From: Octopus vulgaris
Taxonomy: Eukaryota
Assembly (NCBI GenBank): GCA_951406725.2
Contig: OX597832.1
Span: forward strand, 60,326,001 to 60,390,000
Length of the DNA stretch: 64,000 nt
Direction of reading: 5' to 3'
Positions 4,639-50,291 of this stretch are shown piece by piece. A program made the translations under genes and the position numbers. Within the stretch, counting starts at the first letter, position 1; every line of letters starts with the position of its first letter. The notes beneath the pieces are model-generated. The model worked only from the letters and a program-made list of their open reading frames with translations, did no database searches and was not told the origin of the DNA.

Positions 4639-5039
4639 TGTGTGTGTGCGGGCGTGCGTGTCTTAATCGATTCCCTCTATGCTCCTTACCTGTGATTCGA
4701 CCTCACAATGAAGTAGATTAATATTTCCTGTCAGCAACCTCATAAGTCCACTAGTTTAACCCATTACTCAACCGACTAACCTTCCTTCCTTCCTTCCTTC
4801 CTTTCTTTATTATGCAACTATTTGCTGTCGCATTTAGTAACCGAAAGTTAGTCTGTATACACGAGTTTGTATGTCTGTCTGTGTGTGTTTTTCTTACGCA
4901 ACTGTTAAATCTGTTACTAATTATATCAGCATTTTTTTGTTTTTTCCGTTTTCACGCCACAGCTGTTCTCTCCAACCCCGTTCAATAACACGTACGTTTC
5001 TCCCAAAATCTTGTTAGCACATTTTATTAACTGATTACG

Positions 5040-5640
5040 TATTTCTTTACTACCCACAAAGGACTAAACACAGAGAGGACAAACAAGAACAGACAACGGA
5101 TTAAGTCGATTATATCGACCCCAGTGCGTAACTGGTACTTAATTTTATCGACCCCGAAAGGATGAAAGGCAAAGTCGACCTCGGCGGAATTTGAACTCAA
5201 AACGTAACGACAGACGAAATACCTATTTCTTTACTACCCACAAGGGGCTAAACACAGAGGAGACAAACAAGGACAGACAAAGGGATTAAGTCGATTATAT
5301 CGACCCCAGTGCGTAACTGGTACTTAATTTTATCGACCCCGAAAGGATGAAAGGCAAAGTCGACCTCGGCGGAATTTGAACTCAAAACGTAACGACAGAC
5401 GAAATACCTATTTCTTTACTACCCACAAGGGGCTAAACACAGAGGAGACAAACAAGGACAGACAAACGGATTAAGTCGATTATATCGACCCCAGTGCGTA
5501 ACTGGTACTTATTTAACCGACCCCGAAAGGATGAAAGGCAAAGTCGACCTCGGTGGAATTTGAACTCAGAACGTAGCGGCAGACGAAATACTGCTACGTA
5601 TTTCGCCCGGCGTGCTAACGTTTCTGCCAGCTCGCCACCT
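5040..5640 (-). mobile_element. Trimer of tRNA-derived SINE family C (184-185 bp units) flanked by a 15-bp TSD
   Basis: Units start at 5041, 5225 and 5410. B-box GAGTTCAAATTC; core GTCGACTTTGCCTTTCATCCTTTCGGGGTCGATAAA. Direct repeat TATTAACTGATTACG at 5025-5039 and 5640-5654. Confidence 0.9.
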
Positions 5641-5734
5641 ATTAACTGATTACGATTGAAATTTCCCTGTCTAACTGTTCCATTATAGCTACGCCAGTTT
5701 CAACACCGCAAAAGTTAAACCATCAATTATTAGG

Positions 5735-6112
5735 TAGGTTTCCCATCCCTGAGTTTTAAGTGAAAGGATGAAAGACAAAGTCCAGAATGATGGAGTTTGA
5801 AATCAGAACCTAAAAAGCCGGAAGAGATGTTGATAAACACTCTTTCCGGCATGCCAACGATTCTGCCAGCTTGCGGCTTTTGAGAAGAACATTTATGAAT
5901 TTCAAATTTTGACACAAGGACAGCGTGTTCAGGAAATGGGGTAAGTTGATTAAATTGACCCCAGTACTCAACTGGTACTTATTTTATCAATTCCGAAAGG
6001 ATGAAAGGCAAAATCGACCGAGATAGAATCCAAACTGAAATCATAAAGAAGGACGAAACACTGCTAAGCAATTCGTCCGGCGTGTTAACGATTCTACAAG
6101 CTTGTCGTCTTT
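5735..6112 (-). mobile_element. Two degraded family C SINE copies
   Basis: Remnants GAAAGGATGAAAGGCAAA, ACTGGTACTTATTTTATC and CCGGCGTGTTAACGATTCT. Confidence 0.65.
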
Positions 6113-6994: not shown

Positions 6995-7640
6995 ACAGTG
7001 GCTCTCATGGCTTCTGATCTTAACTGATGGGAAGTGTTGTCATGTACATTGTTTTGTCTTGGTATAAAATATGGACTACAGCAAATATTCTGCTCTGTAG
7101 CACAGATTTGCTTGTCATTTGTTTGACCTTAACCAGTTGAGCATGTCCTTTAGTGGCTGACGATATGTGCATCTTTGATCACAAGCAAAAGTAGCGGGGG
7201 AGCATCATAGCCATGTGTTGAGAGGGATTCTTTGGGGTTTGGATAATTCACGTCTGGAAGCATGGGTGTTTCGTTCAACATCCTTAAACAGACCTTATTC
7301 AGGAACCTTTAGAGTGGGATGGGCAACTAAACCTGAATAAAATTCTAGCTGGGCCCCACCTGGAAGGGCGTGTGCTAAACAGCACACGACCTTGCAGAGG
7401 AATTCTTTGGGGTTTGGATAATTCACCTCTGGAAACATGGGTGTTTCGTTCAACATCCTTAAACAACCCATATTTAGGGATCATTTGAACGGGATGGGTT
7501 ACTCAACTAGAAGAAAATTCTAACTGGGCCCCCACCTGCAAGGTCATGCGCTGTTTATTTTGATATGAGATGAGTAAACTGGCCTTCGTATATTTTACCC
7601 CAGTGTCACATTGATCGCATGCACTGCTCTCTCACTCAAT
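6995..7640 (+). mobile_element. Probable LINE 3' UTR fragment embedded in an (AAT)n array, with an internal ~140-bp duplication
   Basis: Flanked by (AAT)n on both sides; 7227-7365 is duplicated at 7401-7545. Confidence 0.5.
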
Positions 7641-7668: not shown

Positions 7669-7708
<40 letters not shown>

Positions 7709-8160
7709 CATTCATCATCATCATCATCATTATTATTATTATTACAAAGGAGTGAATGGTTATGATTTGAACGCGCTTTTCGTCATAGGTCTTGCTGGAT
7801 CAGAGTTTATCTGGAAATAAACAAAGGCAAAGAAAAAAAGAAAAAAAGAAAGAAAGAAAGAAAGAAAGAAAAAAAGAAAGAAAGAAAGAAAGGAAGGAAG
7901 AAAGGAAGAAAGGCAGAAAGAAAGAACCAATCGATATTGAAGAGAGGGAAAAGGAAATTCTAGTTTCCTTGTCGTTCCTTGCTTTACTGAAGGAACAATA
8001 TAAATTAAGGAGCCAAACCCTAACAACAACAACAACAAAAACGCATAAACCCAATTTTCTTCCAATTATTTATTGATTCATTCGCTTCTTTGTTTTTGTA
8101 CAATTATTATTATTATTATTATTATTATTATTGTTGTTGTTATTATTATTATTATTATTA

Positions 8161-8281
<121 letters not shown>

Positions 8282-8332
8282 CAAGGCTTCCTCACTCACT
8301 CTTTTCAACTCTTTCAGTTATTTTTCTCCGTC

Positions 8333-8405
<73 letters not shown>

Positions 8406-9039
8406 GTCTATCTGTCTATCTATCTGTCTTTATCAATTTTTCTGTCACTCCGTCTCTAACTTATTCTTTCTTTTTACTCTCTCACTTTAACTCTCTCTCT
8501 CTCTCTCTCTCACTCTCTCTCTCTATCTATCTATCTATCTACCTATCTATCTCTATCAATATTTCTGTCACTATGTCTCTAACTCATTCTTTCTTTTTAC
8601 TCTCTCACTTTAACTCTCTCTCTCTCTCTATCTCTCTCTCTGTCTCTCTCTATCTATCTATCTACCTATCTATCTCTATCAATATTTCTGTCACTATGTC
8701 TCTAATCCATTCTTTCTTTTTACTCTCTCTCTCTCTTTAAGTCTCCCTCTCTCACTCTCACTCTCTCCCTCTCTCTCCCCCCTCTCTCTCTCTCTCTCTC
8801 TCTCTTTAATAAACAGTAGACGCTTCTGCTTTCTTTTTCGTTGCCGATGTCTAAAAGCAATTGGACAAAATGTAGGTAAATATAACAACAAAAATAATAA
8901 TAAAAGACAAAAACAACACCACCACCACCCCCCACACACACACACATGCACACACATTATATTATATCATATTATATTATATATTATATTTTATATTAAA
9001 TCATATATATTTTATATATTATACTGTGCGATCTATCAT

Positions 9040-9102
<63 letters not shown>

Positions 9103-10513
9103 ATATCAACGCTCACACACATACACAAACACACACACACGCACAATACACGCACACACACATAAAAATTGCGTCTGTAGAACACAAAAGAAAATATTTT
9201 GGAAGACAAAACTGAGAAATCTAATTTCACAATGTTACAATATTCCAAGGTTTTCTGCGAGAAGACAAAAGACAAATTCTTGGATTCTCTCCGTCTGGTT
9301 CAGCCTCGCTGATTTCCAGCACAAAACCGAGTTTCCAATCTAAAGATTCCTTACTTCTTGCTGCTTACCATTTTTCTGTTTTTTCCTTCTTTCTCTCTTT
9401 CGTTTGTCTTGCTTTCCTTCTTTTTTCCTTTACTTCGTTTGTTCTTCCTTTGTTTCATTCTTCACTTGTTTCATTTTTTTTTATTTGCTTATTATATATA
9501 TATTTTTTTTTGTTTATTTCCAGTACCCGAGACATAGAAATTGGCGAGCGGGTGGACGGGTGGCGTAACTTATTCTTCCCACCGCCACTTCTATCCACCC
9601 TGATGTCTGGTATGCGAAACGCTACAACTACCAGCAGAACACATACACAATTATGCACACACACAAGCACACACTTGCACACACACAATTATACACATAC
9701 ACACACACACACATATGCACACACCTCCACTATTGCCTACAGAAGTGGGTAGATGGGAGTAAGGGTAGGGAGTTAGAGTTTAGCTGCCACACCGCTACTA
9801 CCACCACCACCACCACCACCACTAAGACCACTACCACTAAGACCACTACCACTACTAACACTGCAGCCACAACAAACACAGCCATCAACATCACCCCGCC
9901 ACAAACACCACCTCGGCCATTACCACCACCACTACTACAACTACCAGCTACTCCACCACCACAACCAGCAACACCATCACCACTATTACAACCACCACCA
10001 CTATAACATCACCACCACTATAACATCACCACCACTATAACACCACCACCACTACTACAACAACGACCATTCCCACAACAATACCCGTTACAACCACAAC
10101 CACCAGCATCACCACCACAAACAGCTCAACAACCCGAGCACTAGCACCGCAACCACTATCATAACCACCACTACAACCACTACCACCATGGCTATCACTA
10201 CAACAACATTTTCACTACCACTATCGCTCATACGTTGCCAACACCATCACCACAACGATCATAAAACAAGCCAACACCACCTCAAACTACAGCCTAAACT
10301 ATCACCGCCACCGCAAACCAGCAATTTCAGTATCACCATTACCACCATCGCCAACGACACAATCATGAAATCTACTACCAAAATCACCCACAACCACCAC
10401 TACGCTTACAACAAACAGAACCATTTATTGTTGCCAAAATTTTTTCTTTCTGTCTGTTGCAATTTTGTAGTTTACGATTTTCCTTCAGTATGATGACCAA
10501 TTATGTCACCTGA

Positions 10514-26927: not shown

Positions 26928-27114
26928 GTATGTTTGTATATATATATATATATATATATATACGCTATACGCGCTGATAGACAAATGACTATTTCGAAGA
27001 AAGCAGCATTTGGAAAAGATAGAAAACTATTGTAAATCTATTCTAGGAGGCAACAGAAGATGACTTTTTATTGCGGTTCCATCAGGTGATTCCTCAAAGT
27101 TGATGCTGCTGCTG

Positions 27115-27249
27115 CTACTACTACTACTACTACTTCTAATATTACCAATACACAAACCACTACCACCAACACTATAACTACTAGTGTCATCAGGACGATT
27201 ACGAACACTTTTAATGATAGTACTACTACCACCAACACGGCTGGTAGTA

Positions 27250-27288
<39 letters not shown>

Positions 27289-27458
27289 TAATTTTTCTAT
27301 TCCACTTATTACTGCAACTGCTACTACTACTACTACTACTACTTCTAATATTACCAATACACAAACCACTACCACCAACACTATAACTACTAGTGTCATC
27401 AGGACGATTACGAACACTTTTAATGATAGTACTACTACCACCAACACGGCTGGTAGTA

Positions 27459-27497
<39 letters not shown>

Positions 27498-27668
27498 TAA
27501 TTTTTTCTATTCCACTTATTACTGCAACTGCTACTACTACTACTACTACTACTTCTAATATTACCAATACACAAACCACTACCACCAACACTATAACTAC
27601 TAGTGTCATCAGGACGATTACGAACACTTTTAATGATAGTACTACTACCACCAACACGGCTGGTAGTA

Positions 27669-27707
<39 letters not shown>

Positions 27708-27755
27708 TAATTTTTTCTATTCCACTTATTACTGCAACTGCTACTACTACTACTA
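27115..27755. repeat. Three near-identical 209-210 bp tandem units inside a trinucleotide region
   Basis: CTTCTAATATTACC at 27133, 27342 and 27552. Confidence 0.92.
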
Positions 27756-27854
27756 CTGCTGCTGCTGCGACCACCACTTCCACCAATACCAACACCATCA
27801 CCACAACAACTACTACTACTGGTTCTACTGCTGCCACCACCACTACCTCCACCT

Positions 27855-49894: not shown

Positions 49895-50291
49895 GATATT
49901 CTTTTCTACTCCAGGCACAAGACCCGAAATTTTGGGAGAGGGACTAGTCGATTAGATCGACCCCAGTACGCAACTGGTACTTAATTTATCGACCCCGAAA
50001 AGGATGAAAGCAAAATCGACCTCAGGGGAATTTGAACTCAGAACGCAAAGACAGACGAAATACCTATTTCTTTACTACCCACAAGGGGCTAAACACAGAG
50101 AGGACAAACAAGGACAGACAAACAGATTAAGTCGATTATATCGACCTCAGTACGTAATTGGTACTTAATTTATCGACCCCGAAAGGATGAAAGGTAAAGT
50201 CGACCTCGGCGGAATTTGAACTCAGAACGTAACGGCAGACGAAATACCGCTAAGCATTTCGCTCAGCGTGCTAACGTTTCTGCCAGCTCGC
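49895..50291 (-). mobile_element. Family C SINE dimer (Tx1-type tail unit joined to an alternative-tail unit)
   Basis: Junction AAAGAAATAG|GTATTTCGTCTGTC is identical to those in 5040-5640. Confidence 0.88.

What the first reader, a model, noticed from the sequence alone, without database searches (positions are those of the whole stretch)
5025..5654. SINE trimer inside a single 15-bp TSD, with the same multimer junction 45 kb away
Seen: one full head, then units joined tail-to-internal-head at AAAGAAATAG|GTATTTCGTCTGTC. One TSD brackets all three units. The identical junction recurs near 50063, joining to a unit with a different tail. Inference: a multimeric master RNA, repeated RT template jumping or circular template, or sequence-specific insertion into its own head. 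Tx1-clade endonucleases are known to be target-specific.
Basis: partly seen in the sequence, partly recalled or inferred. Interest (0 to 1): 0.7.

Follow-up and report, generated by a model that had tools for sequence, protein, structure and literature searches.

The report
SINE that inserts into its head
This three-unit repeat belongs to a very common short jumping-DNA family with over 20,000 identical head-skipping joins, which likely form when new copies land inside older copies, guided by a few letters at the RNA's end, and then grow by ordinary local DNA duplication.

Summary
In detail: one head, three ~184-nt units, a perfect 15-bp TSD, and the same junction at 50064. It is not rare: the exact 29-nt junction occurs 20,831 times in the genome, and 30 of 95 young tail-A heads carry it. 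A shared multimer master or a circle is not supported as the main route: dimer units differ like random pairs and show no linkage across the junction. Targeted insertion is supported. 21 of 28 double-head loci show a young copy nested at head position 48. Terminal units of older families are older than first units. Two arrays ending in an old unit sit where a related species already has a SINE head. Target choice follows the SINE's own tail subfamily, suggesting RNA-DNA pairing rather than only a Tx1 nuclease. This trimer is a dimer plus a local staggered duplication (1 mismatch; junction haplotype unique to the locus); a relative has the empty site. How its first dimer formed is not shown. 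Similar arrays are published for clams and squamates, and this scan noted the same family at least three times on other DNA.

The parts
5640..5654 (.). Upstream (5') copy of the 15-bp target site duplication
   Evidence: Identical to 5025-5039; a single copy remains in the empty site of run X11
5593..5639 (-). SINE head, positions 1-47, present once; folds into a hairpin whose loop ends at the junction position
   Evidence: no tRNA call, no meaningful Rfam match
5409..5592 (-). Unit 1: positions 48-231, central domain plus tail A
5224..5408 (-). Unit 2: 5' part copies unit 3, 3' part copies unit 1 (staggered duplication)
   Evidence: 1 mismatch to the staggered model, null 1% quantile 8
5040..5223 (-). 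Unit 3: terminal unit with tail A, 13 differences from unit 1
5025..5039 (.). Downstream (3') copy of the TSD
50065..50291 (-). Second site: head plus tail-A unit
49898..50064 (-). Second site: headless family-B unit joined at position 48

Best explanation
The element is a one-head, three-unit array of a young SINE subfamily (tail A); its tail-to-position-48 junction is re-made independently many times, likely by target-primed insertion of a new copy into the head of a SINE already in the genome, and its middle unit likely arose later by local staggered duplication. Shown: the junction register, nested insertions with inner TSDs at that register, unrelated units within most dimers, older terminal units, and in-place change of unit number. 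Inferred: the RNA runs a few bases past the tail (GGUAU...) and pairs with the nicked target, which matches position 48 of every family member; the cDNA then anneals to the homologous upstream head, so only one head remains and the older element's TSD brackets the array; each copy's 3' flank starts with the motif it was aimed at, so the preference would be inherited. An L1/Tx1-type LINE with a similar tail likely supplies the enzymes.
For: Nested copies: 21 of 28 double-head loci have an older head upstream, and the new tail resumes the core exactly at 48. Age: last unit more diverged than first in arrays ending in family B (0.075 v 0.043, n=63, p=1e-9) or C (0.131 v 0.048, n=10, p=0.002). Independence: A|A dimers differ within as between loci (0.106 v 0.112, n=51); 3 of 320 cross-junction site pairs at p<0.01 and none at p<0.001. 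Relatives: at L316 two young monomers are absent (bridged contig, 4 of 4 runs), while at the 4-mer ending in an old B unit contigs of 3 of 4 runs begin 25 nt inside the head; a second array (position-15 junction, old B end) shows the same by contig-end figures. RNA guidance: position-48 junctions go with T-type tails, and 14 of 15 position-15 junctions with C-type tails; monomer targets start TA:GG 19:3 in one tail subfamily and 0:18 in another (p=1e-8); TSD mismatches resolve toward the extension 19 v 6 (p=0.015; control 7 v 6). Enrichment: 30 junctions v 15 other GGTAT targets, against 35:599 available sites. Local growth. Precedent for seamless 5' annealing: PMC11331408 (passages).
Against: Only 3 of 118 multimers not picked by head keep two heads, so the seamless step is inferred for nearly all. 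Heads of A|B arrays mostly look new, not old: allele 43G in 11 of 49 v 16 of 56 monomers and 0 of 33 free B; head divergence 0.084 v 0.074, p=0.18. This needs the new head to overwrite the old one, and fits RNA-level joining equally. Outer TSD age is intermediate and inconclusive (31/469 mismatches v 57/1289 monomers and 29/262 free B; no significant correlation with either unit). 7 of 51 A|A dimers have near-identical units, some sharing locus-private variants. The orthologue test covers two arrays, head side only for the 4-mer, and cannot exclude an array older than the species split. In the paralogue series the monomer's body type matches neither unit of the dimer. For this trimer the relative's site is empty, which does not tell how the first dimer formed.
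Confidence: 0.62

Rival explanations
1. Template switching during one insertion: reverse transcriptase stalls at the head hairpin, and the cDNA end pairs with the GGUAU extension of another (or the same) RNA and continues, so the multimer lands in an empty site in one step.
For: The junction lies at the 3' foot of a hairpin loop; heads are mostly of the new type; units are unrelated or, in 7 of 51 dimers, near-identical; the window's site is empty in run X11.
Against: Does not explain double-head loci with inner TSDs, or heads present in relatives at two arrays. It needs old, decayed B and C copies to act as primary templates, yet 0 of 6 detected free-C TSDs are perfect and arrays ending in C have equally decayed TSDs (2 of 10 detected).
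Confidence: 0.2
2. Read-through RNAs from many already-dimeric source copies are retrotransposed whole.
For: Explains new heads with older last units and intermediate TSD age; 6 locus pairs are close in both units against 0.23 expected.
Against: No linkage across the junction. The close pairs are one paralogue pair and homogeneous young-subfamily arrays sharing subfamily, not private, variants. The trimer's haplotype has no sibling. It needs another mechanism to make the first dimers.
Confidence: 0.12
3. Same nested insertion, but aimed only by sequence-specific Tx1-type endonucleases, with different LINEs serving different tail subfamilies.
For: A young EN-RT-zinc-finger LINE with a tail similar to tail A sits in (TATC)n in 5 of 5 copies printed; a TAT core is common to most SINE targets.
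Against: Target start differs between tails that differ by one base, and mismatches resolve toward the RNA extension. No LINE was found inserting at position 48: 305 of 329 cores starting at 44-56 follow tail A.
Confidence: 0.1
4. A ~184-nt circular RNA template copied round several times.
For: Interior units of 5 of 7 arrays with five or more units differ by 5 or fewer bases.
Against: First and last units differ, terminal units are often other families, and nearly all arrays have a head that a circle lacks. Local duplication explains the uniform interiors. No RNA reads were available to test it directly.
Confidence: 0.03

Closest known systems
TSD1-(SINE)n-TSD1 arrays of the blood clam Scapharca broughtonii (PMC11481361; passages seen)
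   Same: First unit with full head, repeated head-truncated units, one TSD around all, 4-15 units
   Different: There internal units also lose the 3' tail, about 3% of SINEs are tandem, and unequal recombination is proposed. Here units keep a full tail, about a third of young heads carry the junction, and nested insertion with subfamily-linked targets is shown.
SINE-derived satellites (sSat1-3) of squamates (PMC10702118; parts 1-4 of 5 read)
   Same: Tandem units shorter than the SINE, fixed register in abundant variants, more uniform units in longer arrays, unit number varying between orthologues
   Different: Most sSats have one extended terminus and start from internal duplication; insertion into the same locus is only mentioned. 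Here arrays are mostly 2-3 units and join different families.
SINEU-3 / Tx1-Mar of crocodilians (PMC4494074; passages seen)
   Same: A SINE that prefers a site in another repeat, stacks by sequential insertion, and is mobilised by Tx1-type LINEs
   Different: Target is a Mariner element, tandem copies are separated by a TSD, and specificity is ascribed to the endonuclease. Here the target is the SINE's own family and joins are mostly seamless.
R2 'Anneal' 5' junctions (PMC11331408; passages seen) and 3' RNA-target pairing in I factor, R1Bm, R2Ol and RTE-related SINEs (as summarised in PMC6007223; passages seen)
   Same: Seamless 5' join by cDNA annealing to upstream homology; 3' pairing helps priming
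   Different: Those are autonomous or engineered elements, mostly in rDNA; animal RTE microhomology was 1-2 bases. Here both steps are inferred for a SINE.
Dip, B2 and Ves multimers (PMC8466645; passages seen)
   Same: A large share of SINE copies sit in head-to-tail multimers
   Different: Those are described as full-length units (PMC10702118), not head-skipping joins; origin was left open.

Membership tests
SINE (non-autonomous retroposon) | Short, high copy, flanked by TSD, absent at orthologous site | tested here: met
SINE (non-autonomous retroposon) | 3' tail shared with a LINE | tested here: met
   About 38 of 50 aligned columns match the 3' end of a LINE with EN, RT and zf-RVT domains; partner role itself untested
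SINE (non-autonomous retroposon) | tRNA-derived head with Pol III promoter | tested here: inconclusive
   No ARAGORN or Rfam tRNA match; box-like motifs judged from recall only; transcription untested
True dimeric/multimeric SINE (Alu-like, copied as a multimer from masters) | Position-specific diagnostic variants linked across units | tested here: not met
SINE-derived tandem arrays (sSat; TSD1-(SINE)n-TSD1) | Head once, truncated units repeated in fixed register, one outer TSD | tested here: met
SINE-derived tandem arrays (sSat; TSD1-(SINE)n-TSD1) | Four or more uniform middle units; subtelomeric bias | tested here: inconclusive
   Not met by this trimer; met by a few arrays up to 11 units; chromosomal distribution not tested
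Tx1-clade target-specific system | Partner LINE falls in the Tx1 clade by RT phylogeny | not tested
   Closest solved protein is L1 ORF2p; ORF1 has a weak zinc knuckle; no tree built
Tx1-clade target-specific system | LINE and SINE share the target | tested here: not met
   Candidate LINE sits in (TATC)n; no LINE tail seen at position 48 in the sample
Named octopus SINEs or HCD superfamilies (OR1, OR2, OK; CORE, Deu, Meta, Ceph) | Match to published consensus | not testable with these tools
   No consensus library available; PMC4824008 passages give no sequence to compare

The most novel reading that the evidence does not exclude
A SINE with RNA-encoded, heritable target choice: the few bases transcribed past the tail pick the insertion site, the site becomes the daughter's own extension, and one extension matches the family's own head. 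Junction-bearing copies then make longer self-matching extensions, a feedback that converts tens of thousands of dispersed SINEs into one-head arrays that seed satellites and overwrite old promoters with new ones.
Probability: 0.4. Interest if true: 0.72.

Novelty: new variant of a known kind. Interest (0 to 1): 0.5.

Why it matters
How SINEs give rise to tandem repeats is open: the squamate and clam papers describe the arrays but leave the first duplication unexplained. This family offers a testable first step in tens of thousands of copies. It also suggests that a SINE's target preference can be carried by its RNA end and inherited, and that a young subfamily can take over older copies in place. 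For annotation, a single outer TSD is shown not to prove a multimeric transcript.

Tried and rejected
An early reading that clean-head arrays keep the old head fell when head-selected loci were removed. Outer-TSD dating could not separate nested from co-inserted units. Concordance of variants in the putative inner TSD (positions 49-62) was not above chance: 2 of 19 and 5 of 41. A long element joined to a SINE at L266 looked like a LINE targeting position 48; its three such copies are segmental duplicates, and 9 other relatives have other flanks. Rfam gave one chance snoRNA match; folding z was -1.76, weak. A random multi-chromosome census was not obtained; the sample is mostly the first 20 Mb of C1 and enriched for junctions by design. 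Literature searches listed no paper describing this junction in an octopus SINE; in PMC13282606 the terms 'dimer' and 'satellite' had 0 hits. Repbase, Dfam and subscription papers were not searchable, and no supplements were read.

Full report
Observation. The minus strand of 5040-5639 holds one 47-nt head and three units of 184-185 nt between identical 15-bp repeats. The 15-mer occurs twice in the window. The junction occurs twice here and once at 50064, where the downstream unit has a different tail. A 643-nt contig of run X11 (organism E) joins 5024 to 5640, which is the empty site; contigs of X3, X5 and X7 run from a flank into the element. The element is therefore a real insertion. The genome looks octopus-like; that label is inferred from recall and earlier notes.

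Scale. G000 holds 20,831 exact copies of the 29-nt junction, 3,580 and 740 of two variant forms, 56,898 tail 19-mers followed by G and 19,053 followed by another base. I analysed 330 loci (1.83 Mb), mostly from the start of C1 and enriched for junctions. Of 583 tail-A ends, 271 ran into flank and 312 into SINE sequence: 278 at head position 48, 15 at position 15, 19 elsewhere, mostly position-48 joins with small indels. Among 103 copies picked only by an exact head, 95 had tail A: 63 monomers, 27 position-48 junctions, 3 offset variants and 2 position-15 junctions. Three related families share head and core but differ in tail and age: A, B and C, with median core divergence 0.032, 0.097 and 0.15.

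The junction is re-made, not inherited from a few masters. In 51 A|A dimers the two units differ as much as units from different loci (0.106 v 0.112, p=0.2). Across the junction 3 of 320 site pairs reach p<0.01 and none p<0.001; within the first unit of the same dimers 11 of 190 and 6 of 190 do. Seven of 51 dimers are near-identical, a minority route I cannot assign. Six locus pairs are close in both units against 0.23 expected; those inspected are one paralogue pair and uniform arrays of a young subfamily.

Nested insertion is directly visible. A pattern for an old head followed by a new head has 153 matches. Of 28 examined, 21 have an older head upstream and a new tail that resumes the core exactly at position 48 with an inner TSD; 4 are in register but lack a detectable head or core; 3 gave no tail-A call. 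The pattern fixes the upstream register, not the downstream one. In clean-head arrays ending in family B or C the last unit is older than the first (n=63, 0.075 v 0.043; n=10, 0.131 v 0.048), while A-ended arrays show no difference (n=68). At L316, contigs of 4 of 4 runs from organisms E and F bridge the site of two young monomers. At the 4-mer that ends in an old B unit, contigs of 3 of 4 runs begin 25 nt inside the head, and at a second array ending in old B the contig-end figures place the start inside the head too. Tail A is far shallower in X11 than in X3 relative to the core (depth is a rough guide only), so these heads most likely belong to pre-existing B copies.

What does not fit simply. 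Only 3 of 118 multimers not picked by head keep two heads, and heads of A|B arrays mostly carry new-family alleles. Heads are older where the last unit is older (0.085 v 0.052 at equal first-unit age), so some old heads survive. I infer that the cDNA anneals to the upstream head and usually overwrites it; seamless annealing is documented for R2 templates with as little as 11 bp of homology (PMC11331408, passages), but overwriting is my inference. Outer TSD age is intermediate and does not decide between routes.

What aims the insertion. TSDs start at the tail end, within one base in 63 of 86 T-type elements, and targets begin G,G,T,A,T in 47, 41, 64, 60 and 52 of 86 (partly tail-selected). In the head-selected set, one tail subfamily has monomer targets starting TA 19 times and GG 3 times; another has 0 and 18 (p=1e-8). 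C-type tails make the position-15 junction, whose sequence matches their own common target start. Where the two TSD copies differ in the first five bases, the downstream copy is closer to an extension motif 19 times and the target 6 times, of 113 elements (p=0.015; control 7 v 6). SINE heads are hit 30 times against 15 other GGTAT sites, while they are 35 of 634 available sites; at seven bases the excess remains; at eight bases heads already outnumber other sites 29 to 10. An RNA extension of about 5-8 bases explains all of this. TATTT is a moderate Pol III terminator in mammalian SINEs (PMC8466645, passages), which would end a junction-bearing RNA there; the head has the same motif, so this is speculative. 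Different LINE partners per subfamily remain an alternative. A young LINE with a 1,149-aa EN-RT-zf ORF2 and a similar 3' end exists but sits in (TATC)n; its clade was not established.

This trimer. Units 1 and 3 differ at 13 sites. Unit 2 equals unit 3 in its 5' part and unit 1 in its 3' part with one mismatch; random units reach 8 at the 1% quantile. Rare variants are shared in that pattern, and the 69-nt junction haplotype occurs twice in the genome, both here. Of 24 trimers, 7 fit this model with 5 or fewer mismatches and 14 need 10 or more, that is three independent units. Three segmental duplicates of one insertion, with the same TSD and private head variants, are a monomer, a dimer and a trimer, so unit number changes in place; direction is not shown, and the monomer's body type matches neither dimer unit. 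Whether this locus's first dimer formed by nesting or at RNA level cannot be read from the data.

Comparison. The architecture is published for clam and squamate SINE arrays; SINE stacking in a transposon target is published for SINEU-3. My searches listed no paper on self-targeting with subfamily-linked RNA extensions. Earlier scan notes on other DNA of this genome report the same family and similar readings; I had written my reading before seeing them, and they are not independent support. Verdict: a real, very common feature, a new variant of SINE-derived tandem arrays, with a testable origin.

Noticed in passing
L331, L332, L333 (G000:C1, about 5.52, 8.14 and 216.39 Mb): Segmental duplicates of one SINE insertion as trimer, dimer and monomer; the monomer's body subfamily matches neither unit of the others, which suggests body replacement.
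   Followed up: partly
L349:820-6543 (-); L343-L348: Very young, abundant LINE (26,373 candidates; 150 scored at 99-100% identity) with EN-RT-zf ORF2 and a tail like SINE tail A, inserted in (TATC)n.
   Followed up: partly
L292 (-), about 7700-9400: Tandem elements with a 499-aa zinc-knuckle ORF and tail-A-like 3' ends; no RT seen in the stretch examined.
   Followed up: partly
L316:2840-3311; L014; L307; L263: Young SINE copies joined tail-to-tail on opposite strands, one apparently inserted at the other's 3' TSD or junction.
   Followed up: no
G000:C4:19472630-19472930; C11:89645239-89645379; C6:120813005-120813093: Head-only tandem repeats with a period of 55-59 bp, likely expanded from double-head loci.
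   Followed up: no
G000:C1:0-5 Mb: Junction matches are dense at the start of C1 (most of the first 100 lie in 5 Mb), possibly a subtelomeric bias as for sSats.
   Followed up: no
window 5762-5874 and 5934-6102 (-): Two older, diverged copies of the same SINE superfamily lie just upstream of the trimer in the same orientation.
   Followed up: no
window 7221-7543 and 27109-27757: Unrelated tandem repeats of period 175 (1.8 copies) and 210 (3.1 copies, 99% matches).
   Followed up: no
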